This document shows, in pieces, positions 4,542 through 48,990 of a stretch of DNA of 64,000 bases. Source of the DNA: an uncultured Coriobacteriales bacterium (GTDB taxonomy: Bacteria > Actinomycetota > Coriobacteriia > Coriobacteriales > QAMH01); the NCBI GenBank assembly GCA_934646835.1, contig CAKUES010000003.1:16500-80499 (forward strand). Direction: 5' to 3'. The notes under the pieces are model-generated. The model saw only the letters and a list, made by a program, of their open reading frames with translations. It was not told where the DNA came from and searched no databases. Each line of letters begins with the position of its first letter. The stretch's first letter is position 1. The position numbers and the translations under genes are program-made.

Positions 4542-4594
4542 GTGACACCATTTGTACCAGTGACACCAAATGTCACTGGTACAAATGGTGTCAC
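4542..4594. repeat. family-1 palindromic repeat, short form (24-bp perfect stem, CCAAA loop)
   Basis: GTGACACCATTTGTACCAGTGACA-CCAAA-TGTCACTGGTACAAATGGTGTCAC, between ettA and the PAP2 gene. Confidence 0.9.
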
Positions 4595-4625
4595 GTTCGC
4601 ATCACAAAAAAGGAGGTTCGACTTC

Positions 4626-5123
4626 ATGACAGCAGATCAGTATGCGTGCTGGTCGCAGCCCTTCAGGGACGACCCTCGCATGCTCAAGGTCCTCTTGGTG
4701 GGCAACAAGGTCGAGACCTACCTCTTCTACATCCTCTATCCGCTCTTACTCGTCATCCTCGCTGTGACGGGCAATTCGCTGCTTCTCAAGGCGATCGCGG
4801 TCCCAGCCGTGAGCTTTGTGTTGGTGAGCGTCTTTCGCAAGCTCTACAACGCTGCGCGCCCTTACGAGGAACTCGATATCGACCCGCTCATCAAGAAGGA
4901 CACGAGCGGCAAGTCGTTTCCCAGCCGCCACGTCTTCAGCGTCTACGTCATCGCTATGGCATGGTTGCCGTTTAATACGGTGGCAGGTGTGTTGCTCTTG
5001 CTATTGGGCATCGACATGATGTTCATCCGCGTGGTGGGCGGCGTGCATTACCCGCAAGACGTCGTCGCTGGTGCGGTGTGTGGAATTCTCGCAGGCGTGC
5101 TCGGTTTCTACATCCTTCCGTAA
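4626..5123 (+). CDS. PAP2-family (lipid) phosphatase, membrane
   Basis: ORF 4542..5123 trimmed to ATG 4626 (AGGAGG SD), because the upstream part is repeat sequence. Motifs KLYNAARP, PSRH, GGVHYPQD. Confidence 0.85.
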   Translation: MTADQYACWSQPFRDDPRMLKVLLVGNKVETYLFYILYPLLLVILAVTGNSLLLKAIAVPAVSFVLVSVFRKLYNAARPYEELDIDPLIKKDTSGKSFPSRHVFSVYVIAMAWLPFNTVAGVLLLLLGIDMMFIRVVGGVHYPQDVVAGAVCGILAGVLGFYILP

Positions 5124-5187
5124 TCGCTGTGTCACATCGGCGGGGTAGAATCGAAGGCATGAAACAAGACTGCCAAAGGAGGACGTC

Positions 5188-5922
5188 ATGAGCAATCAGA
5201 TTGCGAAAACCGTCAAGTCCGGGGTCAAGGTCGCGGCCGCCGCCGCTCCCGTTGTAGCCGTCGTGGGCGCGCAAAATCTCCCCAAGGTCGCCAAGGCAAC
5301 CGCAAAGACCGCGGTCAAGGCGGCACCTGTCGTGGCCAAGGCCGCGGCTAAGTCTGCGCCCAAGGTCGCTAAGGCTGCCGCGCATGCCGCCCCCAAAGTC
5401 GCATCCGCCGCTGCAGCTGCCGCACCCAAGGCTGCATCCAAGGCGATTCACGCCGTCCCCAAGGTTGCATCTGCCGCCGTCCAGGCTGCGCCCAAGGCAG
5501 CCGCCAACCTTGTCGAGGCGGCCCCTGCCGTTGCTGCGGCTTCTTTCGCATCCGCACAGGGTGCTGCACTTGCGGTTCGCGACTCCCAGGCTGCCCGCAA
5601 CGCCAAGGCCGGTGCTCTCGCCGTCGCCAACGGCGCCAAGACCGGCATCGTCAAGGCTGGCAAAGCAGGCGCAAAGGGACTCGCAGCCTTTGGCTCCCTT
5701 GCCAAGCGCGGCTTCTCCGGGCTTCCCGCCAAGGGCAAGGTCGCCGTGGTCGGTGCTGGCGTGGGCTTGACTGCCGCTGCGGTGGCGCACGTCGTCTACC
5801 ACCATGGCAAGTGCGTCCAGTCTGCCGATGATGACGCCGCATTCGACGACATGTTCGACCTCGTGGAGGATCCGGGCGACGATGTCGACGGCGAGCCCCT
5901 GTACGAGAGGGGCGAGGACTAG
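5188..5922 (+). CDS. Ala/Lys-rich protein with Pro-punctuated 11-residue repeats, one hydrophobic segment and an acidic C-tail (function unknown)
   Basis: Strong SD (AAGGAGG, 6 nt before ATG). The ORF fills the only gap between the PAP2 and Cof genes. Pro at residues 21, 32, 47, 58, 69, 80, 91, 102, 113. The competing overlapping ORFs lack an SD. Confidence 0.6.
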   Translation: MSNQIAKTVKSGVKVAAAAAPVVAVVGAQNLPKVAKATAKTAVKAAPVVAKAAAKSAPKVAKAAAHAAPKVASAAAAAAPKAASKAIHAVPKVASAAVQAAPKAAANLVEAAPAVAAASFASAQGAALAVRDSQAARNAKAGALAVANGAKTGIVKAGKAGAKGLAAFGSLAKRGFSGLPAKGKVAVVGAGVGLTAAAVAHVVYHHGKCVQSADDDAAFDDMFDLVEDPGDDVDGEPLYERGED

Positions 5923-5923
5923 G

Positions 5924-6700
5924 TTGGCGAGGAAGCTCTTCTTTTTCGATTACGACGGCACCCTCGCCGTGCCCCGCACCAGGACCATCCCGCAAAGCAC
6001 GCGCGATGCGCTGCAGACGCTGCGCGACGAGGGTCACTTCATCGCGCTAGCTACGGGGCGCCTGCAGTGCAACGCCGTGGACTACATCGATGCCCTGGGT
6101 ATCGACAACATCGTAGCCGACGGCGGCTACTCGGTCACCGTCGACGGCAAGCTCGTGTGGATGGAGCCGCTTGCGCTTGAGCCCTGCAGGGAGTGCCTGC
6201 GCCGTCTGGAAGCGGCCGGCATCGTCTGGGCGGTGCAGCTCGGCAACGAGATGCTGCGCTATACGCCCTTTGCGGATTTCGATGCGATCGCGGGCGACTA
6301 CTACGTCCCCACGCAGGTCGACCCCACTCTGAGCATTGACGGGCTGGACGCCATCTACAAGATCTACATCCCTTGCAAACGCGCTGATGAGGCCGCCTTC
6401 GTCGCAAGCGGCGTGCTGGATGGAGTGCCCTGGGTCCGCTACAACGACGATTCCGTCTTCGTCGAGCCGCTTTCCAAGGCGGTCGGCATCAAGAAGATGG
6501 TTGATATCATCGGCGGCTCCTACAGCGACGTCGTGGTCTTTGGCGATGGCAAGAACGACATCTCCATGTTCTTGCCGGAGTGGACGAGCATCGCCATGGG
6601 CAATGCCGTGCCCCAGCTCAAGGAGCATGCCGATTATGTGACCGATGACTGCGACAAGGACGGCATCGCCAACGCATGCCGCCACTTTGGGTGGATCTAG
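5924..6700 (+). CDS. Cof-type HAD-IIB phosphatase
   Basis: ORF 5804..6700 trimmed to TTG 5924 (GAGGAC SD). Motifs FFFDYDGTL, ATGR, GDGKNDISMF, AMGNA. Confidence 0.85.
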   Translation: MARKLFFFDYDGTLAVPRTRTIPQSTRDALQTLRDEGHFIALATGRLQCNAVDYIDALGIDNIVADGGYSVTVDGKLVWMEPLALEPCRECLRRLEAAGIVWAVQLGNEMLRYTPFADFDAIAGDYYVPTQVDPTLSIDGLDAIYKIYIPCKRADEAAFVASGVLDGVPWVRYNDDSVFVEPLSKAVGIKKMVDIIGGSYSDVVVFGDGKNDISMFLPEWTSIAMGNAVPQLKEHADYVTDDCDKDGIANACRHFGWI

Positions 6701-6702
6701 CA

Positions 6703-7587
6703 ATGCAGATGGAAAGCAATATCTTCAAGACGGCGCTCTACTTCGAGGGTGGCAGCATGCGCGGGGCGTACTCCGCCGGCGCCAACCGCTGCCTTGTCGA
6801 GCACGGACTCTTCTTCGACAATGTCTACGGCATCAGTGCCGGCAGCTCCAACGCGGTGAACTACCTCACGCGCGATGTGGAGCGCATCGTCGGCGCCTTT
6901 GGACATTTGATGGCCGACGAACGCGCCGGCAGCTGGAAGAGCTTCGTGCACGGGCGCGGCTTGTTTGACGTGGAGTACCTCTACAACGAGGCTGACATGC
7001 CGGGTGGCACCCTGCCCTTTGACTACGAGGGCTTCGCCTCCAATCCTGCCAAGCTCAACATCTTCGCCTTCGACCGCGACCGCGCCTGCGACGTGCGCTT
7101 TACGAACAAGATGATGCACAACACTCTCGACGTCATGCAGATGGTGCGTGCATCCTCCACGCTTCCCATCGTGATGCCTGCGCCCACTATCGACGGCGTC
7201 ACCTACTACGACGGCGGCTTTGGCGATGGCGGTGGCCTTCCCATGCGCACCATCCTCGCCGACGGCTTCGAGCGCATGGTGGTCATCCGCACACGCCCGC
7301 GCGGCTACCGCAAGGGCGAGACGGACGGCTACATGAAGCTGCTCTTCCGCAAGCAACCCAAGATGCGCGAGGCCGTGCTCACGCGCAACGAGCGCTACAA
7401 CCAGGCATGCGATTTCCTTGACGAGCTCGAGCACGAGGGCAAGGCGTATGTCTTCTATCCCGAGCACCTCACGCTACAGGGCACGGAGCGCGACGCCCAA
7501 CTGCTCGAGAGCAACATCCAGGCCGGCTATGCTCAGATGCTGCAGGAGCTTCCTGCCATCCGCGCCTACGTCGAGGCAGGAGAGTGA
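6703..7587 (+). CDS. patatin-like phospholipase
   Basis: Oxyanion GGSMRG, nucleophile elbow GISAG, and a YYDGGFGDGGG Asp dyad region. ATG 6703 lies 3 nt after the Cof stop. Confidence 0.85.
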   Translation: MQMESNIFKTALYFEGGSMRGAYSAGANRCLVEHGLFFDNVYGISAGSSNAVNYLTRDVERIVGAFGHLMADERAGSWKSFVHGRGLFDVEYLYNEADMPGGTLPFDYEGFASNPAKLNIFAFDRDRACDVRFTNKMMHNTLDVMQMVRASSTLPIVMPAPTIDGVTYYDGGFGDGGGLPMRTILADGFERMVVIRTRPRGYRKGETDGYMKLLFRKQPKMREAVLTRNERYNQACDFLDELEHEGKAYVFYPEHLTLQGTERDAQLLESNIQAGYAQMLQELPAIRAYVEAGE

Positions 7588-7595
7588 TGGCGGCG

Positions 7596-7885
7596 GCCCC
7601 CGTAGGGGAGGGTCCCCTGGGCTGTGCGGCTGTGGACCCCGTAGATGAGGGGCCTTTGGATCACGTGGCTGCAACCTCCGTAGGGGAGGGACCCTGTCCC
7701 TCCCCATACACCGCTCATCCCTCAACCGCTCCCGAAAACCGTCATTCTGAACGGAGCTTGCAGCCTGCGGTCCTAATCCCCGTAGGGGAGGGACCCTGTC
7801 CCTCCCCATATGCCGTGCAACCCTCGACCGCTCCCAACAACCGTCATTCTGGGCGCAGCGCGCAGCGTGGAGTCGAAGAATCTGG
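7596..7885. repeat. family-2 core array: two ~112-bp tandem units plus degenerate upstream cores
   Basis: CCGTAGGGGAGGGACCCTGTCCCTCCCCATA occurs at 7678 and 7790, each followed by ...CCGCTCCC.A.AACCGTCATTCTG.... Weaker cores are at 7599 and 7637. Confidence 0.85.
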
Positions 7886-7898
7886 CCGCGGCAAATCA

Positions 7899-8663
7899 AT
7901 GACCCGTAACACTGCAGCCCTCCTTTGCGAGCTCAACACGCGCTTCTACGCTGATAACGCCGCAAGCTTCTCCGCAACGCGCCACAGCTCTTGGGACGGC
8001 TGGGATGCAGCCCTCGACGTTGCCGGCTTTGCTAGCGCGCCGCGTCGCGTTGTCGATGTGGCCTGCGGCAACATGCGCTTTGCGGATTGCCTTGGCAAGC
8101 GCTTTCCTGCGGCGGTGATTGATTACATCGGCGTCGACAACTGCGTTCCCCTGGCATCGAGCGTCCAGCGCATGCAGCTTGCTGTCTCGTTTGCCGAGTG
8201 TGATATCGTCGGCTGCCTCATCGACGACATGCCCCTCGAGCTTCCCGTGGGTGACCTCGTCGTTTGCTCGGGCTTCATGCATCACGTGCCGGGACAGGCC
8301 CGTCGCGTGCGCATGCTCGCAGAGCTGCTTCGTGCCGTGAGCCCCGGTGGCGCGCTCGTCGTCTCCTTCTGGCAGTTCATGGGCGATGAACGATTAGCGC
8401 GCAAGGCCTCGGCGCTCACTCCGCTTGCCCTCGAGGAGCTCGGGCTTTCGCCTGGCGACCTCGAGCTTGGCGACTATATACTCGGCTGGCAGGACTCGCC
8501 CACGGCGCGTCGCTACTGCCACAGCTTTACGGTAGAAGAGGTCCGCTCGTTGGCAGATGCAGCGCTCGGAGAGACCCTCTGTGACTGCGAGCTGTCGTTT
8601 CTCGAGGCCGACGGCCGCAGCGGCCGTCTCAACTGCTACTTAGTCGCCCGCCGCTTGAGCTAG
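7899..8663 (+). CDS. class I SAM-dependent methyltransferase
   Basis: ORF 7584..8663 trimmed to ATG 7899 because 7584-7898 is repeat array. Motif I is VVDVACGNMRF. Confidence 0.75.
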   Translation: MTRNTAALLCELNTRFYADNAASFSATRHSSWDGWDAALDVAGFASAPRRVVDVACGNMRFADCLGKRFPAAVIDYIGVDNCVPLASSVQRMQLAVSFAECDIVGCLIDDMPLELPVGDLVVCSGFMHHVPGQARRVRMLAELLRAVSPGGALVVSFWQFMGDERLARKASALTPLALEELGLSPGDLELGDYILGWQDSPTARRYCHSFTVEEVRSLADAALGETLCDCELSFLEADGRSGRLNCYLVARRLS

Positions 8664-8675
8664 CGTGTGCTGTGT

Positions 8676-8792
8676 CTAGGGAAGTGCTGATTAAAGCAAA
8701 TGCACGCTGCATGCGATTGGCAGAAACGCTGGTCACGCAGGGGAGGGACCCTGTCCCTCCCCATAAACCTCGCTTTGCTCAGCGTTTTCCTG
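8676..8792. repeat. family-2 MITE-like element
   Basis: CTAGGGAAGTGCTGATTAAAGCA...GGGGAGGGACCCTGTCCCTCCCCATAAACC...CAGCGTTTTCC; aligns with 45764..45883. Confidence 0.85.
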
Positions 8793-8838
8793 ATGCTATG
8801 CGTTATCCGTGCCATCGATGAGGAGGGAACATAACCCT

Positions 8839-9501
8839 GTGAGTTACTACGACGATCATGCGGAGGAGTTTCTCTTGGCAACGCAAGACGCCGATATGGG
8901 TGTCGTCCTCGCCTGCTTTCTGGAGGAGCTTTCCGATGGATTGAGTGTTTTGGACTGGGGATGCGGCTCTGGGCGTGACTCGCTTGCATTGCTTGCGGCG
9001 GGTTGCGATGTGACAGCCGTGGACTTGTCGTCTGCCATGTGTGCGGCCACTGCTGCGCTAACGGGGCTGGAGCCGCGCAACGAGTCGTTTTTCGATCTCG
9101 ATGACGTTGATCGCTACGACGGCATCTGGGCGAGTGCGTCCTTACTGCATGTGCCGAGTGTGGACCTGCCTGCTGTTTTGCATCGTGCGGCAACGGCTCT
9201 CAAGCCCCGAGGCGCCCTTTACTGCTCGTTTAAATACGGCACGGGTGAGCTCGAGCGCAACGGCCGCTTCTTCAACGATATGACAGAGGAGAAGTTCACC
9301 TCCTTGCTCGGCTCCGTACCGTCTTTGCGTCTTGTTGAGACCTGGGTTACCGAGGATGTTCGTCCTGAGCGAGCAGGCGAGCTTTGGCTCAACTGCCTTT
9401 TGCGCCGCGTGTGGCCAATCGCTGTGCAGGCGCGCCGTTGCCTCCCCTCCGCTTGCGGGTTGAAATGCCGCGTTCACATTCGCTTGGTGCTGCCTGGGTG
9501 A
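8839..9501 (+). CDS. class I SAM-dependent methyltransferase
   Basis: ORF 8809..9501. GTG 8839 is preferred (GAGGAGGG SD ~12 nt upstream). Motif I VLDWGCGSGRD, motif II DGIWASASLLH. Confidence 0.75.
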   Translation: MSYYDDHAEEFLLATQDADMGVVLACFLEELSDGLSVLDWGCGSGRDSLALLAAGCDVTAVDLSSAMCAATAALTGLEPRNESFFDLDDVDRYDGIWASASLLHVPSVDLPAVLHRAATALKPRGALYCSFKYGTGELERNGRFFNDMTEEKFTSLLGSVPSLRLVETWVTEDVRPERAGELWLNCLLRRVWPIAVQARRCLPSACGLKCRVHIRLVLPG

Positions 9502-9540
9502 TAATGGCCGGGACAGAAACGAGCCTTGAAGGAGGCAACC

Positions 9541-10140
9541 ATGTACATCACCTGCTTGGATATGGAAGGCGTGCTCACCCCGGAGATCTGGATTGAGTTT
9601 GCCAAGGCGACCGGCATCAAGGAGCTGGAGCGCACCACGCGCGACGAGCCCGACTACGACAAGCTCATGCAGTACCGCATCGACATCCTGCGCGAGCACA
9701 GCATGGGCATCAAGCAAATCCAGGAGGTTATCTCCACGCTCGAGCCCATGGAGGGTGCGCGCGAGTTCTTGGACGAGCTGCGCGGCATCACCCAGGTCGT
9801 TGTCCTGAGCGACACCTTCGAGGAGTTCGCTACTCCGCTGATCGAGAAGCTCGGTCGTCCGACTATCATCTGCAACTCCCTCGAGATCGACGAGGACGGC
9901 ATGATCACCGGCCACAAGATGCGCTGCGAGCAGACCAAGCTCACCAGCGTCAAGGCCTTCCATGAGATGGGCGTCGAGACTCTTGCTGCCGGCGACAGCC
10001 ACAACGACATCGGCATGATTAAAAACTCCAAGGCTGGCTGGCTGTTCAAGAGCACGGATGCCATCAAGGCTGAGTTCCCGGAGATTCCTGCCCTCGATAC
10101 CTACGACGAGCTCCTCGCCGCCATCAAGGCCGCGCTGTAA
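9541..10140 (+). CDS. thrH: phosphoserine phosphatase / phosphoserine:homoserine phosphotransferase ThrH
   Basis: MYITCLDMEGVLTPEIWIEFAKATGI...TTRDEPDYDKLM...VVLSDTF...AGDSHND is collinear with Pseudomonas ThrH as I recall it. ATG 9541 follows GGAGG. Confidence 0.85.
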   Translation: MYITCLDMEGVLTPEIWIEFAKATGIKELERTTRDEPDYDKLMQYRIDILREHSMGIKQIQEVISTLEPMEGAREFLDELRGITQVVVLSDTFEEFATPLIEKLGRPTIICNSLEIDEDGMITGHKMRCEQTKLTSVKAFHEMGVETLAAGDSHNDIGMIKNSKAGWLFKSTDAIKAEFPEIPALDTYDELLAAIKAAL

Positions 10141-10194
10141 GGGCGGCAGCGGCTCAGCGTTGAGCTGCAGCTAGTGTTTAGACTTTGGTCCTTC

Positions 10195-10298
10195 GTGACA
10201 CACTTTGTGCCAGTGACATTGTGTATCACGCCGTCGAGTCGTAGGTTAACGTAAGCTTTCTGCGTGATACACAATGTCACTGGCACAAAGTGTGTCAC
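10195..10298. repeat. family-1 repeat, long form (two inverted 35-nt modules + 34-nt spacer centred on GTTAAC)
   Basis: GTGACACACTTTGTGCCAGTGACATTGTGTATCAC...GTGATACACAATGTCACTGGCACAAAGTGTGTCAC. Confidence 0.9.
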
Positions 10299-10349
10299 GG
10301 CGCTGGGTCGCAGGGTCTCGCAATCGCGTCTCCTGTACAATAGCTCCTT

Positions 10350-12161: not shown

Positions 12162-12410
12162 TTCTCGTTGGGGCGCCTCCGCCGTAGGCTCTTGCTCTGC
12201 TGCCGCCAGGCGGGTGGGTAGCACATTTCCCATCCCTGTGCGGCGTCACTATGACAAACTCCGCACTATCAAATTTTCAAAATATCCGGATTCTCGCGTT
12301 TCTTTCCCGTAAACAAAGGCATACTTCTAAGCATCGACAATTCGTCGGGTCACGCCCCGGCGTGGTCTGCCAGGGCGCGACCCTCTACGGAGAGGTTAGG
12401 TGAGTGCGCT

Positions 12411-14465: not shown

Positions 14466-14530
14466 TTGGCCAGCGTGTTTCGCATAGCAGTGATTAAGGG
14501 GCGGATCCGTTTTGGGTTCGCCTCTTCTCT

Positions 14531-14611
14531 TGTCACTGGGACTTTGCGCGAAGCGTGTGACACCAGATGACACCAGATGACACCAGATGTACCAGTGACA
14601 TTGTGTGTCAC
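14531..14611. repeat. family-1 repeat, degenerate copy carrying a 3x 10-bp tandem (GACACCAGAT)
   Basis: TGTCACTGGGACTTTG...GTGACACCAGATGACACCAGATGACACCAGATGTACCAGTGACATTGTGTGTCAC. Confidence 0.75.
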
Positions 14612-14691
14612 GTTGGCAACCTCTGGCAGTGCTCCTCGCGCCTTGTGCTTTAATCGAGACCATCCAACAACCCTCGAGCACGGAGGCATCC

Positions 14692-19224: not shown

Positions 19225-19277
19225 GTGACACCGTTTGTACCAGTGACACCAAATGTCACTGGTACAAACGGTGTCAC
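19225..19277. repeat. family-1 repeat, short form
   Basis: GTGACACCGTTTGTACCAGTGACA-CCAAA-TGTCACTGGTACAAACGGTGTCAC. It differs from copy 4542 by one compensated base pair. Confidence 0.9.
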
Positions 19278-19299
19278 GTCCCCGGTTTTCCTCGCTGCC

Positions 19300-26053: not shown

Positions 26054-26158
26054 ATGACACACTTTGTGCCAGTGACATTGTGTGTCATGCCATAGAGCCG
26101 CAGGATATCCCCGAGCCTTCTGCATGACACACAATGTCACTGGCACAAAGTGTGTCAT
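26054..26158. repeat. family-1 repeat, long form (spacer centred on GATATC)
   Basis: Base-for-base identical to 48886..48990. Lies between convergent metI and the U32 gene. Confidence 0.9.
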
Positions 26159-28793: not shown

Positions 28794-28972
28794 TGGAAAA
28801 CGTTGATTACGTAGGGAGGGACCGAAGTCCCTCCCCATAAGCCTCGCATTATCTAGGGAAATACTGATTAATGCAGATGTCCACTGCGCATGGTTGGCAA
28901 AACCGCTGGTTACGTAGGGGAGGGACTCTGTCCCTCCCCATAAGCCTCGCATTTAATCAGCGCTTTCCTAGG
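28794..28972. repeat. family-2 element, about 1.5 tandem copies (internally deleted copy + full copy 28853-28972)
   Basis: GGAAAACGTTGATTACGTAGGGAGGGACCGAAGTCCCTCCCCATAAGCCTCGCATTAT is followed by CTAGGGAAATACTGATTAATGCA...CAGCGCTTTCCTAGG. Confidence 0.85.
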
Positions 28973-30949: not shown

Positions 30950-30994
30950 CGTGACACCGTTTGGCACCTTTTGTACCAGTGACATTTGGTGTCA
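30950..30994. repeat. family-1 repeat, single module, inside the rib operon
   Basis: GTGACACCGTTTGGCACCTTTTGTACCAGTGACATTTGGTGTCAC, between ribE and ribBA. Confidence 0.8.
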
Positions 30995-31045
30995 CGATGT
31001 GTTGGTTGGGTTGTGGGTAGGCTCGGCTTGTCTGCTCTTTGTGCT

Positions 31046-33116: not shown

Positions 33117-33220
33117 GTGACACACTTTGTGCCAGTGACATTGTGTTTCACGCAGGAGAGTCGTAGGTCAACGCGAGCGCGCTGCGTGATGCACAATGTC
33201 ACTGGCACAAAGTGTGTCAC
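33117..33220. repeat. family-1 repeat, long form (spacer centre GTCAAC)
   Basis: Two inverted 35-nt modules, about 170 nt upstream of the FMN riboswitch. Confidence 0.9.
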
Positions 33221-38345: not shown

Positions 38346-38449
38346 GTGACACACTTTGTGCCAGTGACATTGTGTGTCATACAGAAGACCCACGTTAACC
38401 AGCAAGCTCACGGCATGACACACAATGTCACTGGCACAAAGTGTGTCAC
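38346..38449. repeat. family-1 repeat, long form
   Basis: Ends 10 nt from the RAYT stop codon. Spacer is centred on GTTAAC. Confidence 0.9.
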
Positions 38450-38458: not shown

Positions 38459-39184
38459 TCATTGCGAGAGAATTCGATGCACTGTTGATCTTGAGACTCC
38501 GGTCAATCTCGCTATCTGGGCTTTGGTGAAGCCGTTGTCAGACAGCTTTCTCACGGAAGCGTCTCTAGAGGCCATGTCCAGACCTTTTACTGTGGTTGGG
38601 CTATCGAGGCCCAGAATGCGCTTTGCTTCTTCCACTGCGTCGTTGTCAGTTGTCCGGAGTCCTTGGTACAGGGTTTTCTTGCTAAAACCGGTGCAGTCTT
38701 GCTTATCAGACAAGTCAATCATCAGAGAATCATCCAGCAGGAAGCGCTTACCGCAGTATTCCTGGTAGCTGCTCCAACGATAACTTGCAGGATGCTCGAC
38801 GATTTGAGCCCTGACCGGATTATTGTGGATGTAGTGAATGGCTGCGGCGAGGTATGATTCGCTCGCGATGGGAAAGCTGCTAAAGGTTCCTTGGAACAAG
38901 TGTCCGGTCCTAGAGTGTCTTCTATTTATGTCCTTGGCGTATCTCTCTTTGACCTGCTTCATTGCTGGCGTTATGTCTTCAAGTGGTGCCATCACTAGAA
39001 GATGGAAATGGTTGTCCATTAGGCACCAAGCGGCAACTTTGATGTCGTGTGCAACGCAAGCCTCTTTGAGCAAGCGCAGAAAATGGCGCCTGTCGTCATC
39101 ATCTTCGAAGATTATCTGACCGCCAACTCCGCGGCTGGTCACGTGATAGAGATTGCAGAGACTGATTTTGCGCGGTCTTGCCAT
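38459..39184 (-). CDS. IS200-fold HUH/Y1 transposase-like protein (REP-associated tyrosine transposase candidate) with C-terminal HTH
   Basis: 241 aa. YHVTSRG..., HUH motif DNHFHLLV, GHLFQGTFSS, catalytic-Tyr helix AIHYIHNNPVRA, and C-terminal AQIARLTGVSRSTVHRIL. Confidence 0.8.
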   Translation of the reverse strand: MARPRKISLCNLYHVTSRGVGGQIIFEDDDDRRHFLRLLKEACVAHDIKVAAWCLMDNHFHLLVMAPLEDITPAMKQVKERYAKDINRRHSRTGHLFQGTFSSFPIASESYLAAAIHYIHNNPVRAQIVEHPASYRWSSYQEYCGKRFLLDDSLMIDLSDKQDCTGFSKKTLYQGLRTTDNDAVEEAKRILGLDSPTTVKGLDMASRDASVRKLSDNGFTKAQIARLTGVSRSTVHRILSQ

Positions 39185-39277
39185 TTGGCTCCTCTCGAAG
39201 TGCGTGGCTCAACACCCTGCCTTACGTAGGAGCCAAACACAAGGAGAGCCTTTCAATCAGCATCGTAAAAACATAAG

Positions 39278-39392
39278 ATGACACACTTTGGACACACTTT
39301 GTGCCAGTGACATTGTGTGTCACGCAGAGCGTTTGCGTTAACCTGCGGCTCCCTCCCGTGACACACAATGTCACTGGCACAAAGTGTGTCAT
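39278..39392. repeat. family-1 repeat, long form with an 11-nt partial duplication (GACACACTTTG x2)
   Basis: Begins 94 nt upstream of the RAYT start. Spacer is centred on GTTAAC. Confidence 0.9.
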
Positions 39393-39422
39393 CCATCGAA
39401 GCACTCCCGCCTTCGCGCGTCT

Positions 39423-39965
39423 CTAATCCAGCAGGCGCTCGTAGTCCTCTTTCACGAAGCGGTGGTAGATGACGTGACCCATCTCCTCCTTGAAGCAGTA
39501 ATAATGGGAGTCGATGGACGGGTCGGCAAAGTGCATGCCGTAGTCGAACTCGGCGCCGGCGGGCATGTTCTCGAGGACGTAGTCGTCGGAGTACCTGGCA
39601 AACAGGCCGATGATCTTCTCTTTGGCGGGATGGTGCTCGGTCAAGAAGAGGTCGATGAGGTCGACCAGAAAAGCCGGTGCGGGGACTTCCTCGTGCACGT
39701 ATTTGGAGCCTTGCGGCGGGATGCGGACCTCGATGCGGTCCTCGTGGGTACCGAAAGTGACGTTGCCCAAGGGCGAGTCATCCAAGACATGCGCCTTGGT
39801 CAGCTCCTTACACAGCGTGGTCGCATCAGGGGCGTCGGTCCCGATCAGGGAGTTGAGCGAGGAGACCTTGTAGTAAAAACGCGTCGACTCGTACGCGTAG
39901 CCGAGCTTGATCTGCAGCTCGACGATCTGGTCGATGATGTCCTTCTCAAGCCTTGCGACGTCCAT
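39423..39965 (-). CDS. hypothetical protein (DUF3877-like, from memory)
   Basis: ORF 39423..40007 trimmed to ATG 39965 (GAGAAAGGG SD). KLGYAYESTRFYYKVSSLN and YYCFKEEMGHVIYHRF resemble a Firmicute DUF family I recall. Confidence 0.5.
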   Translation of the reverse strand: MDVARLEKDIIDQIVELQIKLGYAYESTRFYYKVSSLNSLIGTDAPDATTLCKELTKAHVLDDSPLGNVTFGTHEDRIEVRIPPQGSKYVHEEVPAPAFLVDLIDLFLTEHHPAKEKIIGLFARYSDDYVLENMPAGAEFDYGMHFADPSIDSHYYCFKEEMGHVIYHRFVKEDYERLLD

Positions 39966-40111
39966 CGCAAACCCTTTCTCTCGCATGCCCGTAGACGCCG
40001 GCGCCAACCTGCATCTTTAAACGTGCAACCAACCATTTGTTCAATCATCCCTATAATACCCATACAGACAAGCACCACTAGCATCTGTTAACCAGACGAA
40101 AAGAGGGCTTC

Positions 40112-41035
40112 ATGGGTTTTCTTGACGCTGCCAAATCGGCAATCGACGCCGGAGTGGGCATGGCGGGCAACGCCGTCGGCTCCGTTGCGAGCGCGGCAAA
40201 CGACTTTGGGGTCGAGCGCATGGAGTTTATGCGCGGCCTGGCAAACCTCTGCACCGAGGGTTGGAAGATGGGCTGGCACGAGGCCAACGGCGGCAATGTG
40301 TCCTACCGCCTCAAAACCGATGACGTAGAGGCCTGCCGCGCGGCCTTCAAGACAGACGCCGCCTGGGTGGAGCTTGGCATTACCTGCCCGCAGATGGCAG
40401 GTGAGTTCTTTGCTGTCACCGGCACCGGCAAGCACCTGCGCCTTGTCGAGAGCGCTCTCGCCAAGAGCATCGGCATCGTCGAGGTCAGCCCGCTAGGCGA
40501 CAGCTATCGCATCGTCTGGGGGCTTTCCGACGGCACTGCACCCACGAGCGAGCTGCCGAGCCACATCCTCATCCATGCCGTGCGCGCGGAGGCAACGGAC
40601 TATCACTCCCGCATCCTCTACCACGCGCACCCATCCAATGTCGTGGCCCTCACCATGGTACTGTCCGGCTGCGCCCGCACCATCACGCGCGCGCTGTGGG
40701 GCGCGATGACGGAGTGCATCATGCTCGTCCCGCAGGGCCTGGGCTTCGTCGAGTGGAAGATGCCGGGAAGTGCCGATATCGCGCAGGCAACCGCTGAATG
40801 CATGAGAGAGTACCCTGCCGTCGTCTGGGCCCACCACGGGCTGTTCACCTCAGGATCGAGCTTCCAAGACGTCTTTGGGATGGCACACACCATCGACAAG
40901 GCCGCGGGCATCTACCTGAGCGCGCGTGCGGCCAACGGCGGCAGCGACGACTTCGCCTCCACCATCAGCAATGAGAACCTCCTGCAGATATGCGACGAAC
41001 TGTCGCTTGACTGCAAGAGAGAGTGGCTCGAGTAA
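40112..41035 (+). CDS. rhaD: class II aldolase, rhamnulose-1-phosphate aldolase-like
   Basis: 307 aa. GWHEANGGNVSYRL, VTGTGK, TSELPSHILIH, HAHPSNVVALT; collinear with E. coli RhaD as recalled. Confidence 0.7.
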   Translation: MGFLDAAKSAIDAGVGMAGNAVGSVASAANDFGVERMEFMRGLANLCTEGWKMGWHEANGGNVSYRLKTDDVEACRAAFKTDAAWVELGITCPQMAGEFFAVTGTGKHLRLVESALAKSIGIVEVSPLGDSYRIVWGLSDGTAPTSELPSHILIHAVRAEATDYHSRILYHAHPSNVVALTMVLSGCARTITRALWGAMTECIMLVPQGLGFVEWKMPGSADIAQATAECMREYPAVVWAHHGLFTSGSSFQDVFGMAHTIDKAAGIYLSARAANGGSDDFASTISNENLLQICDELSLDCKREWLE

Positions 41036-41074
41036 GGCTCGGGCGATCAAATCCACAGCAAGGAGAACCACCAG

Positions 41075-42571
41075 ATGACCAAGCGCTACATCATCGCCCT
41101 CGACCAGGGCACGACATCCTCGCGCACCGTGCTCGTCAACCGCGAGGGCGCGATCTGCGGGATGGCACAGCGAGAATTCCCGCAGCTCTACCCCAAGCCC
41201 GGCTGGGTCGACCACGACCCCAAGGACATCGTCGGCTCGCAGCTTGGCACTTTCACGGAGCTCATGACGCAAATGAGCCTGTCGCCGGACGATATTGAGT
41301 GCATCGGCATCACCAACCAGCGCGAGACCACCGTCATCTGGGATCGCGAGACCGGCGAGCCCATCGCCAACGCCATCGTCTGGCAGTGCCGCAGGACTGC
41401 AGACGTCATCAGCGAGATCTGCGGTGACGACCAGGAGGTCTTCGAGCAGATCACCAAGAGGACTGGGCTGAGGCCGGACCCGTACTTCTCTGCGAGCAAG
41501 GCCAAGTGGCTGCTCGACAACGTCGAGGGCGCGCGCGAGAAGGCCGAAGCCGGCAAGCTCGCCTTTGGCACGGTGGACACCTGGCTCATCTGGAACCTCA
41601 CCAACGGTCGCGTCCATGCGACCGACCCCACCAACGCAAGCCGCACCATGCTCTTCAACATCCACGCCGGCGATTGGGACGACTACCTGCTCGACTTGTT
41701 CGACATCCCTCGTTCGATGATGCCGGAAGTCCGCCCCTCGTCGTCGGATTTTGGCTTCACCGCCAACCCCAACCTCCCGCAAGGCATCCCCATCTGCGGC
41801 GTCGCGGGCGACCAGCAGGCGGCGCTCTTTGGGCAGTGCTGCTTCGAGGCGGGCCAGGCCAAGAACACCTACGGCACTGGCTGCTTCTTCTTGATGAACA
41901 CCGGCACCGATGCCCCCGTGAGCGAGAACAACCTCGTCACGACGATTGCGGCAAGCGCGCCCGGCGAGCCGACCAAGTACGCGCTGGAGGGCAGCGTGTT
42001 TGTCGCCGGCGCACTCATCCAATGGCTGCGCGACGAGCTTGAGCTCGTCAAGAACGCCAGCGACAGCGAGCAGCTCGCGCTGAGCGTTCCCGACAGCGCC
42101 GGCGTCTACATCGTCCCTGCCTTCACGGGCTTGGGCGCACCCTATTGGGACAGCGACGCTCGCGGCAGCATCTTTGGCCTCACGCGCGGCACCACGAAGG
42201 CTCACATCGTCCGCGCCGCACTCGAGGCGCTGGCCTATCAGATGCACGACCTCGCCATTGCCATGGAGGCGGATGCAAAAAGGCCCATCGCCGCCCTCAA
42301 CGTCGACGGTGGCGCAGCGCGGAACAACTTCCTGATGCAGTTCCAAAGCGACATGCTCGGCTGTGAGGTGAGGCGCCCGACGAACACGGAGACCACCGCG
42401 ATGGGTGCGGCCTTCCTCGCGGGTCTGTCCACCGGCTTCTGGAAAAACACGAGCGAGCTTACCGCCCTTCGCGGTAACGACGATGTCTTCGAGCCCAAGA
42501 TGGGCGAGGCGCAGGTTGCCGAGCACCTAGCCGGTTGGAAAGATGCCGTCTCGAGGACGCTGACGAGGTAG
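41075..42571 (+). CDS. glpK: glycerol kinase
   Basis: 498 aa. YIIALDQGTTSSR, GWVDHDP, ITNQRETT, GDQQAALFGQ. Confidence 0.95.
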   Translation: MTKRYIIALDQGTTSSRTVLVNREGAICGMAQREFPQLYPKPGWVDHDPKDIVGSQLGTFTELMTQMSLSPDDIECIGITNQRETTVIWDRETGEPIANAIVWQCRRTADVISEICGDDQEVFEQITKRTGLRPDPYFSASKAKWLLDNVEGAREKAEAGKLAFGTVDTWLIWNLTNGRVHATDPTNASRTMLFNIHAGDWDDYLLDLFDIPRSMMPEVRPSSSDFGFTANPNLPQGIPICGVAGDQQAALFGQCCFEAGQAKNTYGTGCFFLMNTGTDAPVSENNLVTTIAASAPGEPTKYALEGSVFVAGALIQWLRDELELVKNASDSEQLALSVPDSAGVYIVPAFTGLGAPYWDSDARGSIFGLTRGTTKAHIVRAALEALAYQMHDLAIAMEADAKRPIAALNVDGGAARNNFLMQFQSDMLGCEVRRPTNTETTAMGAAFLAGLSTGFWKNTSELTALRGNDDVFEPKMGEAQVAEHLAGWKDAVSRTLTR

Positions 42572-42584
42572 AGGACGAGTGGGC

Positions 42585-42688
42585 GTGACACACTTTGTGC
42601 CAGTGACATTGTGTGTCACGCCGGAGAGCCGTAGGTTAACGCGAGCGCGCTGCGTGATACACAATGTCACTGGCACAAAGTGTGTCAC
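42585..42688. repeat. family-1 repeat, long form
   Basis: Lies between convergent glpK and queH. Spacer is centred on GTTAAC. Confidence 0.9.
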
Positions 42689-45883: not shown

Positions 45884-46104
45884 TTTGTTGTGTTGAGCGC
45901 AGGCCGAAGGCCGAAGCCGAAGCATCTATTCGTAGCCCAACGTTTTACGGGCCTTCGCTCGGAATCAATGCCCTTTGTGTCCCGTTCGGTTCGCAGATGC
46001 TGTCACGCGGTTTTCACTTCCCTGACACGGGCTGGTAACGAGTGACGTTGTCGCCCGTGTTAGAGTGGCAGCAGATAGATCCGCCCATCTCGAAAGGACT
46101 TCTC

Positions 46105-47682: not shown

Positions 47683-47832
47683 GCCGCCTGTCGCTCGCTT
47701 GCGCTTGCGTTAGTCGGCCGCCATACGCCGTCGTCGTCCGTTGAGCTTAAATCTCCGCAGCGATTGAGTGCCCTGCGGTACAATGTTGAATACGTTTGAA
47801 ATGGCTTTTGCCACACTGCGAAAGGAATCGAA

Positions 47833-48771
47833 ATGCCCCAGATCACGCGTGAGGATGTTCGCGTCCCGGCTGACGTTATGCCTGAGTTCCGCGAGACCTA
47901 CATCGACAACATGATGGCCGCCACGCAAGGCACCGGTCGTCTGATGCTCTTTGCATGCGACCAGAAGATGGAGCACCTCAACAAGGACTTCTACGGTGAG
48001 GGCATCGATATCGCCGATGCAGACCCCGAGCACCTCTTCAAGATCGGTGACCAGGGCGTTTGCGGCGTCCTCGCAGGCCAGCGCGGTCTCATCGCTCACT
48101 ATGCCCCGGACTATCCGGAGATCAACTACCTGGTTAAGATGAACTCCAAGACCAACCTGGTCAAGACCAAGCAGCAAGATCCCTTCTCCCCGCAGCTGTG
48201 CGACCTCGAGGCCGTTCTCGCTATGCGCGAGGCTGGCGTCAACATCGTCGGCCTGGGCTACACCATCTACCTGGGCAGCGAGTTCGAGTCCCAGATGCTG
48301 GCAGAGGCCGGCGAGCTCATCGCTGAGGCTCACGCTGAGGGCCTGATTGTGGTCCTGTGGATCTATCCCCGCGGCAAGGCTGTCGAGGCAGAGAAGGACG
48401 CAGAGCTCATCGCCGGTGCCGCCGGTGCCGCACTGTGCCTGGGCGCGGACTTCGTCAAGGTCAACCCGCCTGCTCCCACCGATGACCAGACCTCTGCAGA
48501 GCTCCTCAAGGTCGCTTCCATGGCTTCCGGCCGCTGCGGCCTGGTTTGCGCCGGTGGCTCCACCGTCGACGCTCGCACCTTCCTGTCCCAGCTCTACGAC
48601 CAGATCCACGTCGGTGGCGCCTGCGGCAACGCTACGGGCCGCAACATCCACCAGCGCAGCCTGGACGAGGCTGTCCGCCTGACCAAGGCCATCTCTGCCA
48701 TCACCTTCGCCGACTACGATGTCGACGAGGCCATGGATGTCTTCGAGGGCAAGGAGAACTTCTCCATCTAA
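47833..48771 (+). CDS. class I (DhnA/FbaB-type) aldolase family protein
   Basis: 312 aa. Blocks collinear with E. coli FbaB (YTIYLGSE..., VVLWIYPRG, Schiff-base region GADFVKV). Confidence 0.8.
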   Translation: MPQITREDVRVPADVMPEFRETYIDNMMAATQGTGRLMLFACDQKMEHLNKDFYGEGIDIADADPEHLFKIGDQGVCGVLAGQRGLIAHYAPDYPEINYLVKMNSKTNLVKTKQQDPFSPQLCDLEAVLAMREAGVNIVGLGYTIYLGSEFESQMLAEAGELIAEAHAEGLIVVLWIYPRGKAVEAEKDAELIAGAAGAALCLGADFVKVNPPAPTDDQTSAELLKVASMASGRCGLVCAGGSTVDARTFLSQLYDQIHVGGACGNATGRNIHQRSLDEAVRLTKAISAITFADYDVDEAMDVFEGKENFSI

Positions 48772-48885
48772 GCTGTCCTCAGTTGGCTTTATTTGCCGAT
48801 TAACAGCGGTCTCGAGCTCGCGCTCGGGGCCGCTGTATTTGTTTCTGCGCGTCTAAAATGGGACGCGAATCTCGCTTGGTCTTCC

Positions 48886-48990
48886 ATGACACACTTTGTG
48901 CCAGTGACATTGTGTGTCATGCCATAGAGCCGCAGGATATCCCCGAGCCTTCTGCATGACACACAATGTCACTGGCACAAAGTGTGTCAT
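48886..48990. repeat. family-1 repeat, long form (identical to 26054..26158)
   Basis: Direct comparison of the two 105-nt strings shows no mismatch. Confidence 0.9.

What the first reader, a model, noticed from the sequence alone, without database searches (positions are those of the whole stretch)
4542..48990. Family-1 repeat: 11 intergenic copies in 64 kb, built from one 35-nt module in three architectures
Copies lie at 4542, 10195, 14531, 19225, 26054, 30950, 33117, 38346, 39278, 42585 and 48886. The long form (7 copies) is two inverted modules GTGACACACTTTGTGCCAGTGACATTGTGTGTCAC around a 34-36-nt spacer. That spacer always has a 6-bp palindrome or near-palindrome at its centre (GTTAAC, GTCAAC or GATATC). 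The short form (2 copies) is a perfect 24-bp stem with a CCAAA loop. The two short copies differ by one compensated base pair (CATTTG/CAAATG against CGTTTG/CAAACG). There are also single or degenerate modules (2 copies). Each module is itself a hairpin (GTGACACA...TGTGTCAC), so the long form can fold as one ~100-nt hairpin or as two small ones. All copies are intergenic, often between convergent genes or just after stop codons. This density (about one per 6 kb) is very high for a non-proteobacterial genome. The repeat also generates recurrent spurious peptides ([11 protein letters not shown]..., HNVTGTKCV...) that could contaminate protein databases.
Basis: seen in the sequence. Interest (0 to 1): 0.6.

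Follow-up and report, generated by a model that had tools for sequence, protein, structure and literature searches.

The report
REPIN hairpin repeats with their transposase
The 11 repeats are real and belong to about 117 copies of a small hairpin-forming mobile element (a REP/REPIN family) in an uncultured human-gut actinobacterium, and the single transposase gene that most likely spreads them sits in this same window between two copies, which extends a system known mainly from proteobacteria to a new phylum.

Summary
All 11 sites exist and hold 18 modules; none is expected by chance, and a covariance model finds no others in the window.

The family is genome-wide and specific to this species: about 117 elements in 2.13 Mb, against 0-2 chance hits in each of 40 relatives.

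The 35-nt module is an imperfect hairpin with a 13-bp stem and an invariant 9-nt loop, TGCCAGTGA. Long forms are inverted doublets of fixed polarity. That is the REP/REPIN anatomy.

The ORF at 38459-39184 (-) was not linked to the repeats in this finding. It is a single-copy REP-associated tyrosine transposase (RAYT) with a C-terminal HTH, flanked on both sides by long-form copies.

Its homologues in relatives are each flanked by their own palindrome, which is multi-copy in that genome.

There are no target-site duplications and no T-runs. Strains differ in spacer orientation and type at one and the same site, in doublet-to-singlet deletion, and in RAYT loss or frameshift. A 3.2-kb inversion is bounded by copies.

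Verdict: a new member of the known REPIN/RAYT (or TIRtron/TIRYT) kind. I found it undescribed for Actinomycetota.

The scan had noted other REP-like repeats elsewhere in this genome.

The parts
4542..4595 (-). Short form. One full module of the 'ACC/TAC' subfamily lies on the minus strand (4559-4595), followed by the reverse complement of its own first 18 nt. Together they give a 24-bp perfect stem with a CCAAA loop.
   Evidence: the fold-back reading is my own inference from the sequence
10195..10298 (.). Long form (REPIN doublet), 104 nt, with a GTTAAC spacer centre. It lies between two plus-strand genes.
14576..14612 (+). Single module (REP singlet), preceded at 14558-14587 by three tandem partial copies (GACACCAGAT) of the module's 5' end.
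19225..19278 (-). Short form, second copy. It lies between the convergent LysR-type and aldehyde dehydrogenase genes and is present in all strains examined.
26054..26158 (.). Long form, 105 nt, identical to the copy at 48886. It lies between a convergent ABC permease gene and a U32 peptidase gene.
30960..30996 (+). Single module with a partial 5' duplication starting at 30950, inside the rib operon between ribE and ribBA. Its loop is mutated in most other strains.
33117..33220 (.). Long form between the FKBP gene and the FMN riboswitch. Three SNP alleles occur among strains.
38346..38449 (.). Long form that ends 9 nt from the RAYT stop codon, between the convergent P-type ATPase and RAYT genes.
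38459..39184 (-). RAYT gene, 241 aa (P0001). It has an HUH motif (H59, H61) and a Tyr (Y118) in a Y1 transposase domain, plus a C-terminal HTH (residues 209-240). It is single-copy in the genome. Its GC content is 50.3%, against a gene mean of 61.3%.
39278..39392 (.). Long form 94 nt upstream of the RAYT start codon, with an 11-nt partial duplication at its left end. Among strains there are at least four alleles: without the duplication, with the spacer inverted in place, with a different spacer type, and SNPs.
39393..42584 (.). A 3.2-kb segment (DUF3877, class II aldolase, FGGY kinase) that is inverted relative to the same-genus species in which it was found (5 of 6). The breakpoints coincide with the copies at 39278 and 42585.
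   Evidence: (I4)
42585..42688 (.). Long form between the convergent FGGY kinase and QueH genes. It is the only copy with a left module identical to the consensus.
48886..48990 (.). Long form downstream of DeoC's own terminator and upstream of tRNA-Pro. Among strains the same site holds this REPIN, a REPIN with a different spacer, or a singlet. The orthologous site is empty in three congeners.

Best explanation
Family 1 is a REP/REPIN population: short non-autonomous hairpin elements, paired with one RAYT-type HUH/Y1 single-strand DNA transposase.

**The parts**
- The enzyme is encoded at 38459-39184 (-) and carries an extra C-terminal HTH.
- The unit is a 35-nt imperfect hairpin. It has a 13-bp stem, usually with a 2x2 mismatch at positions 10-11 and 25-26, and an invariant 9-nt loop, TGCCAGTGA.
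- The main form is an inverted doublet (REPIN) of about 104 nt. As single-stranded DNA it folds into one long hairpin.

**Inferred mechanism, by analogy with E. coli TnpAREP and the IS200/IS605 transposases**
- The enzyme binds the hairpin on transiently single-stranded DNA.
- It cuts and rejoins through a covalent tyrosine intermediate.
- This moves or copies elements into extragenic DNA without target-site duplication.

**Processes that then shape the population**
- Recombination or gene conversion between the near-identical arms exchanges and flips spacers, deletes one arm to give singlets, deletes the RAYT, and inverts intervening DNA.
- Fold-back priming on the small GTGACA/TGTCAC hairpin gives the short forms.

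**Shown and inferred**
- Shown: the anatomy, the copy number, the specificity to the species, the physical association with the RAYT, the RAYT fold and motifs, parallel RAYT-plus-own-repeat pairs in relatives, and allelic turnover among strains.
- Inferred: that this RAYT is the enzyme that acts on these hairpins, where it cuts, and whether it is still active.
For: **The repeat family**
- 183 core hits, or about 117 elements, in the 2.13-Mb genome. Each of 40 relatives has 0-2, including 6 species of the same genus.
- 116 of 117 elements are extragenic, and 104 of 111 lie beside a gene 3' end.
- All 64 doublets in the core scan have the same polarity, loop-plus then loop-minus.
- In the module hairpin, pair 9-29 is A-T in 76 distinct modules and C-G in 35. 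Pair 10-28 is C-G in 75 and A-T in 11.
- As ssDNA the module folds at -11 to -16 kcal/mol and the doublet at about -52 kcal/mol, z -12 to -16.
- Arms are perfectly complementary in 27 of 60 long forms and have one mismatch in another 27. Of 130 departures from the consensus, 90 are the same change in both arms.
- No target-site duplication of 3 bp or more is seen.

**The enzyme**
- Pfam Y1_Tnp plus HTH_7.
- NCBIfam NF047646, 'REP-associated tyrosine transposase', scores 82.6-84.1 bits against a cut-off of 80. Among 14 control genomes only E. coli exceeds the cut-off.
- H59, H61 and Y118 are invariant in 34 homologues.
- The best solved relative is 4ER8, TnpAREP bound to a REP hairpin. This holds by sequence profile (E 8e-7) and by fold (model pLDDT 88.7; Foldseek E 2.9e-7, TM 0.65).
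- It is the only such gene in a 97.8%-complete assembly.
- Long forms lie 9 nt after its stop codon and 94 nt before its start codon.

**Comparative evidence**
- A 78%-identical RAYT on a metagenome contig is flanked by the same module with a one-base loop change. A 55%-identical one is flanked by an unrelated palindrome.
- Homologues in G009, G015, G003, G014 and G040 are flanked by their own palindromes. These occur 24, 27, 39, 8 and 37 times in those genomes and 0 times here.
- In 23 of 30 sampled homologues from several phyla, the two flanks share a 12-mer or longer, mostly in inverted orientation.

**Dynamics among strains**
- Site 48886 has three alleles with otherwise near-identical flanks.
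- Site 39278 has in-place spacer inversion and spacer replacement.
- The RAYT is deleted between its two flanking copies in one strain and frameshifted in another.
- The orthologous site is empty in three congeners.
- The 3.2-kb inversion is bounded by copies.
Against: - No biochemical or read-level evidence shows that this RAYT cuts or moves these hairpins.
- No strain with a cleanly empty site was found, so the element's ends, its target and the cleavage site are not defined.
- Most sites are fixed across about 20 strains, so current transposition may be rare. Host recombination alone could produce the allelic changes seen.
- The modules lack the unpaired GTAG or CGTC tag of classical REPs.
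- The RAYT's low GC, its 44% or lower identity to homologues in congeners, and its different genomic contexts in other genera do not fit the strictly vertical inheritance described for proteobacterial RAYT groups 2 and 3.
- The genome also holds a more abundant GTAG-tagged hairpin family with no RAYT of its own. One-enzyme-one-family bookkeeping is therefore not settled.
Confidence: 0.82

Rival explanations
1. This is a relic system. The repeats were spread by a RAYT in the past, but the enzyme is now inactive or domesticated. All present variation (spacer flips, replacements, deletions, the inversion) comes from host recombination, gene conversion and replication slippage at palindromes.
For: - Sites are almost all fixed among about 20 strains.
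- The singlet allele is a deletion between direct repeats (CATGACACAC).
- The RAYT-less allele can be derived by recombination between direct-repeat arms.
- The RAYT is dispensable: it is deleted in one strain and frameshifted in another.
- A predicted 5'-UTR hairpin occludes its ribosome-binding site.
Against: - The RAYT ORF is intact, with 0-2 SNPs, in 13 of the 14 strain loci where it could be compared, and its HUH and Tyr residues are kept.
- Two copies 22.8 kb apart are identical over 105 nt, including the spacer.
- At two sites, a whole different spacer type has replaced the resident one.
Confidence: 0.12
2. The hairpins are host-selected structural signals, such as transcription terminators, mRNA 3'-end stabilisers or DNA-structure sites. 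They multiply for that reason, and the transposase gene lies between two of them by coincidence.
For: - 104 of 111 elements adjoin a gene 3' end, at a median of 66 nt from the stop codon.
- They are under-represented in divergent (promoter-only) spacers: 7 of 110 elements that have a called gene on each side, against 17% of intergenic length.
- The hairpins are very stable.
Against: - Only 2 of 60 have a T-run.
- At 48886 the gene has its own terminator upstream of the repeat, and congeners manage with the terminator alone.
- One copy lies inside the rib operon.
- Bracketing of RAYT homologues by genome-specific repeats recurs in many genomes, so coincidence is untenable.
- A secondary, co-opted RNA or DNA role is not excluded.
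Confidence: 0.04
3. The elements are MITEs: deletion derivatives of a DDE-type insertion sequence, with the 35-nt modules as terminal inverted repeats.
For: The size is about 100 nt, the ends are 35-nt inverted repeats, and the elements have no coding capacity.
Against: - There are no target-site duplications.
- The only gene seen bracketed by the modules is the Y1 RAYT; no DDE transposase gene was seen so bracketed, though I did not scan for module pairs more than about 150 nt apart.
- Each end is itself a hairpin with an invariant loop, which is the substrate type of HUH enzymes and not of DDE enzymes (established knowledge of IS200/IS605 and TnpAREP; structure 4ER8).
Confidence: 0.02

Closest known systems
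REPIN-RAYT systems of Pseudomonas, Enterobacteria, Neisseria and Xanthomonads (Nunvar 2010, PMC2817692; Bertels and Rainey 2011, PMC3116915, PMC3337134; Bertels 2017, PMC5581495)
   Same: - Short imperfect palindromes, extragenic, in tens to hundreds of copies.
- The main form is an inverted doublet that folds into one long hairpin.
- A single-copy HUH/Y1 transposase gene is flanked by the cognate repeats.
- Each RAYT lineage has its own repeat sequence.
- RAYT loss occurs in some strains.
   Different: - The host is an actinobacterium of class Coriobacteriia. The papers I read name only proteobacterial hosts for abundant REPIN populations; PMC5581495 ties abundant flanking 16-mers to RAYT groups 2 and 3 only.
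- The hairpin has no unpaired GTAG head.
- The enzyme has a conserved extra C-terminal HTH.
- The gene has atypically low GC and sits in different contexts in different genera, which fits strict vertical descent less well.
TIRtrons / TIRYT (RAYT-like genes flanked by untagged inverted repeats; Di Nocera et al. 2013, PMC3733652)
   Same: - A RAYT-like gene is flanked by repeats that are not GTAG- or CGTC-tagged.
- The repeats are partly self-complementary, belong to a dispersed family, and often occur as dimers.
- The flanks of many homologues of P0001 (GGGGACAG......CCGTCCCC) fit that paper's GGGGWSAS motif.
   Different: - The module here (GTGACAC...CCAGTGACA...GTGTCAC) does not carry GGGGWSAS.
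- About 117 elements (some 200 modules) is well above the 'moderately abundant' families described.
- That paper does not mention Actinobacteria or Firmicutes.
E. coli TnpAREP bound to a REP hairpin (PDB 4ER8)
   Same: It is the best sequence-profile match and the best fold match of P0001. The HUH motif and the Tyr-bearing YI..NPV helix align.
   Different: Identity is about 14%. 4ER8 has 165 residues and no HTH of this kind. Its DNA carries the GTAG tag, which is absent here.
IS200/IS605 family insertion sequences (IS608, ISDra2)
   Same: The catalytic fold is the same, the substrates are hairpins, and no TSD is made (established knowledge).
   Different: - Those are multi-copy autonomous elements with subterminal hairpins, often with tnpB.
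- Here the gene is single-copy and syntenic in all strains.
- The genome's true IS200 TnpA is a separate 152-aa protein on contig C1.

Membership tests
REP/REPIN-RAYT system | Short (20-40 nt) imperfect palindromes, highly repeated and extragenic | tested here: met
   The module is a 35-nt hairpin with an internal mismatch. There are about 200 modules in about 117 elements, and 116 of 117 lie outside ORFs.
REP/REPIN-RAYT system | Predominant inverted doublets (REPINs) of fixed polarity that fold into one hairpin | tested here: met
   63 long forms of 103-106 nt by BLAST. All 64 doublets in the core scan are loop-plus then loop-minus. ssDNA fold about -52 kcal/mol.
REP/REPIN-RAYT system | A RAYT: an HUH/Y1 transposase with RAYT-specific motifs | tested here: met
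   NF047646 scores 82.6-84.1 bits against a cut-off of 80. HUH and Y118 are invariant. The best PDB match by profile and by fold is 4ER8.
REP/REPIN-RAYT system | RAYT gene flanked by its cognate repeats | tested here: met
   Long forms lie 9 nt downstream and 94 nt upstream of the ORF.
REP/REPIN-RAYT system | RAYT present as a single copy, not multiplying with the repeats | tested here: met
   One hit in a 97.8%-complete assembly, by three different profiles. The locus is the same in the metagenomic strain contigs read.
REP/REPIN-RAYT system | The repeat sequence co-varies with the RAYT lineage | tested here: met
   The own core is absent from 40 relatives. Relatives' RAYT homologues have their own multi-copy palindromes. 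A 78%-identical RAYT has the same module with one loop change, and a 55%-identical one has an unrelated palindrome.
REP/REPIN-RAYT system | Long-term vertical inheritance of the RAYT (criterion of Bertels 2017 for groups 2 and 3) | tested here: inconclusive
   The RAYT is syntenic among strains and within genus g4. However, it sits at other loci in other genera, is 44% or less identical to homologues in congeners, and has 50% GC against 61% for the genome's genes.
REP/REPIN-RAYT system | RAYT-catalysed binding, cleavage and mobilisation of the repeat | not testable with these tools
   This needs biochemistry or read-level excision and insertion data.
GTAG- or CGTC-tagged REP superfamilies (Di Nocera 2013) | An unpaired GTAG or CGTC tetranucleotide at one end of the stem-loop | tested here: not met
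   The flanking positions are C (59%) before the module and G (74%) after it, and these pair with each other. No fixed tetranucleotide is present. GTAG or ATAG occurs only in some spacers.
TIRtron/TIRYT (Di Nocera 2013) | A RAYT-like gene flanked by untagged inverted repeats that belong to a dispersed family | tested here: met
   The paper's description was read.
TIRtron/TIRYT (Di Nocera 2013) | The GGGGWSAS motif shared by many TIRs | tested here: not met
   The motif is absent from the family-1 module. It is present in the flanks of homologues in G003, G014, G040 and many others.
MITE of a DDE insertion sequence | Target-site duplications and a parent IS with the same ends | tested here: not met
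   TSDs of 3 bp or more occur in 1 of 60 against 1.5 expected, and TSDs of 4 bp or more in none. No DDE gene was seen bracketed by modules; the only bracketed gene found is the Y1 RAYT, and module pairs more than about 150 nt apart were not scanned for.
Intrinsic terminator | A GC-rich hairpin followed by a T-run | tested here: not met
   2 of 60 long forms have T4 within 12 nt. A separate terminator lies upstream of the copy at 48886.

The most novel reading that the evidence does not exclude
P0001 belongs to an HTH-fused RAYT/TIRYT lineage that is widespread in Gram-positive gut anaerobes. Full-length homologues were found in 69 of 72 sampled species of the genus that named contigs suggest is Collinsella.

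In this genome the one enzyme may service more than one unrelated hairpin family. Candidates include the GTAG-tagged GGGGAGGGAC hairpins (203 tagged copies), which have no RAYT of their own. Recognition might run through a shared GTC(A/C)C element, and the resolvase-type HTH might contribute double-strand targeting or in-place flipping of REPIN spacers.
Probability: 0.15. Interest if true: 0.75.

Novelty: new member of a known kind. Interest (0 to 1): 0.5.

Why it matters
**For REPIN-RAYT biology**
- These systems have been studied as long-lived, vertically inherited intragenomic replicators almost only in Proteobacteria.
- A clear, high-copy example in a human-gut actinobacterium widens that picture. 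Parallel RAYT-plus-own-repeat pairs occur across Coriobacteriia and probably in Bacillota.
- The many metagenomic strains offer a natural experiment: RAYT present, frameshifted or deleted.
- The system can test whether an HTH-fused enzyme behaves differently.

**For practical genomics**
- The repeats break short-read assemblies. RAYT homologues sit on contigs of about 900 bp that end inside repeats.
- They seed spurious ORFs in public gene calls.
- They mark sites of inversion and deletion.
- They could serve for strain typing of these uncultured gut species.

Tried and rejected
- An exact scan of genome contigs for a 23-mer of the module found nothing. The window's own genome may be hidden from that scan.
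- phmmer of P0001 against PDB gave only noise. The profile search was needed to reach 4ER8.
No RNA-seq, Term-seq or read-level excision test could be run, and read laying was not used.
- One flanking protein (9526-10137) is not on record, so the strain comparison does not cover sites 4542-14600.
- Literature searches for REP or RAYT together with Coriobacteriia, Eggerthella, Collinsella, Bifidobacterium or Actinomycetota found no paper joining them. The supplement with RAYT group sequences is not held, so I could not assign P0001 to a Bertels group.
- The MITE reading was considered and rejected because there are no TSDs.
- The terminator reading was rejected because there are no T-runs and a separate terminator is present.
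- A known RNA family was ruled out: no Rfam match lies at any copy.
- An IS200 copy was ruled out: the genome's IS200 TnpA is a different protein.
- My gene model is a crude codon-bias ORF picker with 80% coding density. It missed the RAYT itself, so context percentages are approximate.


Full report
**1.

The 35-nt module matches 14 times in the window at 3 mismatches or fewer. These are 7 inverted pairs at the stated coordinates, with none expected in shuffles. Reading the 11 sites shows 7 long forms of 104-115 nt, 2 short forms and 2 single modules. I built a covariance model from 116 distinct genomic modules and ran it over the window without filters. It finds 18 module positions in exactly those 11 sites and nothing else. 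The short forms fold as 24-bp perfect stems with a CCAAA loop and differ by one compensated pair. Copies 26054 and 48886 are identical over 105 nt. No Rfam family matches any copy.

**2. The family is genome-wide and specific to this species**

The window is C3:16500-80499 of a 2.13-Mb assembly with 41 contigs and 60% GC.

- The core TTTGTRCCAGTGACA occurs 183 times. BLAST merges the hits into 117 elements: 63 long forms, 5 intermediate or short forms, and about 49 single modules.
- The same core gives 0-2 one-mismatch hits in each of 40 relatives, including 6 species of the same genus.
- Density is one element per 18 kb and is over-dispersed: variance-to-mean ratio 1.6, contig chi-square P = 6e-4. 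The window, which holds the transposase gene, has about three times the mean.
- With a crude ORF model of my own, 116 of 117 elements are extragenic and 104 of 111 adjoin a gene 3' end. Divergent spacers are under-used.

**3. Anatomy**

Aligning all modules by their core shows the following.

- Positions 2-7, 12-14, 16-24, 29-30 and 32-34 are invariant or nearly so.
- The stem has 13 bp, or 14 with the flanking C and G.
- The loop is a 9-nt TGCCAGTGA.
- Most copies have a 2x2 mismatch at positions 10-11 and 25-26.
- Stem pair 9-29 is A-T in 76 distinct modules and C-G in 35. Pair 10-28 is C-G in 75 and A-T in 11. These are compensatory differences between subfamilies.

All 64 doublets in the core scan carry the loop-plus module on the left and the loop-minus module on the right, never the reverse. 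In 60 aligned long forms the arms are perfectly complementary in 27 and have one mismatch in another 27. Of 130 arm positions that depart from the consensus, 90 show the same change in both arms. Position 31 is a recurrent asymmetric site. Spacers are 33-36 nt, only about 42% self-complementary, and fall into 55 distinct sequences. The central hexamer palindrome is common but not universal.

Each short form equals one full module plus the reverse complement of that module's first 18 nt. That is the product expected if the small 3' hairpin (GTGACA-loop-TGTCAC) primes fold-back synthesis. This is my inference from the sequences.

Partial duplications of the first 10-13 nt of a module recur at 14558, 30950 and 39278, and in a strain allele at 26054.

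**4. The missing piece is a transposase**

A Pfam Y1_Tnp scan of the whole genome gives two hits. One is the ORF at window 38459-39184 (-), which lies between copies 38346-38449 and 39278-39392.

- The 241-aa product (P0001) passes NCBIfam's equivalog model for REP-associated tyrosine transposase: 82.6-84.1 bits against a cut-off of 80. Among 14 control genomes only E. coli exceeds the cut-off.
- It has Y1_Tnp at residues 25-122 and a resolvase-type HTH at 209-240.
- In an alignment of 34 homologues, H59 and H61 (HUH), Y118 (YIHxNP) and the C-terminal HTH are conserved.
- A profile of that alignment finds E. coli TnpAREP (4ER8) as the best solved relative, E 8e-7, ahead of ISDra2 and IS608 TnpA.
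- An AlphaFold model (pLDDT 88.7) has 4ER8 as its top Foldseek hit, E 2.9e-7 and TM 0.65 on the target.
- It is the only such gene in the 97.8%-complete assembly.
- The other Y1 hit is an ordinary 152-aa IS200 TnpA on contig C1.
- The gene's GC content is 50.3%, lower than 99% of my called genes (mean 61.3%). The module's GC is about 49%, close to it.

**5. Comparative tests**

- Homologues of P0001 occur in 14 of 40 relatives, at 44% identity or less.
- In the loci fetched, they are bracketed by palindromes that differ from genome to genome. Those palindromes are multi-copy where they occur and absent here.
  - GACAAATG-N7-CATTTGTC: 24 copies in G009, 27 in G015, 0 here.
  - TGGGGACNGTCCCCA: 39 in G003, 37 in G040, 8 in G014, 0 here, with several pairs 40-53 nt apart.
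- A 78%-identical RAYT on a 902-bp metagenome contig is flanked by the same module with one loop base changed (TCCCAGTGA). The contig ends inside the repeat on both sides.
- A 55%-identical RAYT is flanked by an unrelated AT-rich palindrome.
- Full-length homologues were found in 91 of 301 sampled genomes of the class and in 69 of 72 species of one genus, at 1-5 copies per genome.
- Named contigs show Collinsella, Eggerthellaceae and Thermophilibacter, and also many Bacillota.
- In 23 of 30 sampled homologues, the two flanks share a 12-mer or longer, mostly inverted and often containing GGGGAC/GTCCCC. Di Nocera et al. described this as the GGGGWSAS motif of 'TIRtrons' and 'TIRYT' genes (PMC3733652).
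- Homologues within genus g4 share one genomic context. Across genera the contexts differ.

**6. No signs of a DDE-type MITE or a terminator**

Flanks of 60 long forms show no direct repeats of 3 bp or more beyond chance. Only 2 of 60 have a T-run. At 48886, DeoC has its own hairpin-plus-T-run terminator upstream of the repeat. Three congeners have only such a terminator and no repeat at the orthologous site.

**7. Population dynamics**

Exact-protein look-ups recovered this chromosomal region from about 20 human-gut metagenome assemblies; record names include Hadza and Nepal cohorts. Most sites are occupied in all strains, but the content changes.

- At 48886, strains with near-identical flanks carry one of three alleles:
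  - the window's REPIN;
  - a REPIN with a wholly different spacer, which is the reverse complement of the spacer of two other genomic copies;
  - a singlet that lacks exactly 70 nt between the direct repeats CATGACACAC.
- At 39278 there are alleles with and without the 11-nt duplication, alleles with the spacer inverted in place, and one with another spacer type.
- One strain lacks the RAYT. A single REPIN joins the left flank of copy 39278 to the right flank of copy 38346. This is derivable by recombination between direct-repeat arms of the spacer-inverted allele.
- One strain has a frameshifted RAYT. In the 13 other strain loci where it could be compared it is intact, with 0-2 SNPs.
- The 3.2-kb block at 39393-42584 is inverted relative to the five same-genus species in which it was found. 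Its breakpoints are exactly at copies 39278 and 42585, which are 91% complementary over 101 nt.

**8. Interpretation**

The anatomy, the single flanked RAYT, the co-variation of repeat with enzyme, and the absence of TSDs meet the defining features of a REP/REPIN-RAYT system. Because the hairpin lacks a GTAG or CGTC tag, the system also fits what Di Nocera et al. called a TIRtron.

That the enzyme acts on these hairpins, and how, is inferred from TnpAREP and IS200/IS605 biochemistry. It is not shown here. Much of the visible turnover could be host recombination acting on the near-identical arms.

The papers I could search place abundant REPIN populations in Enterobacteria, Pseudomonads, Neisseriads and Xanthomonads, and tagged REPs in eight phyla that do not include Actinobacteria. 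No paper linked RAYT or REP with Coriobacteriia or its genera. I therefore class the finding as a new member of a known kind, with two features worth following: the conserved HTH fusion and the unusually large repeat population for this enzyme lineage.

**9. Open point**

The same genome holds a more abundant hairpin family, GGGGAGGGAC-N3-GTCCCTCCCC. It has 437 cores, 203 of them with a GTAG head, and no RAYT of its own. Several family-1 singlets abut such hairpins or another tagged hairpin. Whether the single RAYT also serves these families is untested.

The earlier scan notes e1-2077870 and e1-3344975 describe these families.

Noticed in passing
window 7685, 7787, 8742, 16130, 28816, 28919, 45831, 53400 (and genome-wide): A second hairpin family, GGGGAGGGAC-N3-GTCCCTCCCC, is more abundant than family 1. 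It has 437 cores in the genome, 203 of them preceded by GTAG, the classical REP tag. Yet the assembly has only the one RAYT, which is flanked by family 1 and not by this family.
   Followed up: partly
window 28797-28953; locus L036: One strain lacks 103 bp between ribH and the HAD gene, which is one unit of the tandem family-2 pair. That family is therefore also polymorphic among strains.
   Followed up: no
window 39185-39240 (-): The RAYT 5' UTR can fold so that UUUGGCUCC pairs with GGAGCCAAA, covering the Shine-Dalgarno sequence and abutting the AUG (-37 kcal/mol for 116 nt, z about -2). This could be translational damping, as is known for IS200 tnpA.
   Followed up: partly
genome contigs C1:218429, C1:220600, C1:149125, C5:47625, C10:18742, C10:20176, C14:37226, C29:14917: About eight family-1 singlets lie a fixed short distance from another repeat, ...GCGACCTATGGCGCCGACTTCGTCTGGCGCCTACGTGG (a GGCGCC hairpin with a TACG tail). 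This suggests mosaic, BIME-like clusters of different hairpin families.
   Followed up: no
window 14558-14587, 30950-30964, 39278-39290; strain allele at 26054: There are recurrent partial tandem duplications of the first 10-13 nt of a module, ending in ...TTTGG or ...AGAT. They could be slippage or a footprint of the cleavage and joining site.
   Followed up: partly
loci L075-L148 (named genomes): Full-length homologues of the HTH-fused RAYT occur in many Bacillota (Lachnospiraceae, Oribacterium, Syntrophomonas, Clostridium, Lentibacillus, Gracilibacillus), and on contigs labelled Treponema and Prevotellaceae. Most have inverted flanking repeats that contain GTCCCC/GGGGAC.
   Followed up: partly
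locus L041 (strain contig), region corresponding to window ~34000: One strain carries a 573-aa DDE_Tnp_1 transposase gene upstream of the FKBP gene, where other strains have the EngB-type GTPase gene and its neighbours.
   Followed up: no
genome C1:89023-89370 (locus L001): An ordinary 152-aa IS200-type TnpA is the only other Y1 protein in the genome, and it is not associated with family 1.
   Followed up: partly
window 49098-49276: There are two identical tRNA-Pro(GGG) genes in tandem, 25 nt apart. The duplication is shared with congeners G003 and G006.
   Followed up: no
whole genome, contigs C1-C3 against C4: Family-1 density varies strongly between contigs: 17-20 elements on each of C1, C2 and C3, but 1 on the 144-kb C4. 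Eleven elements lie within 35 kb of the RAYT, against 3.9 expected. This may reflect local spread or a chromosomal-region effect. Contig order is unknown.
   Followed up: partly
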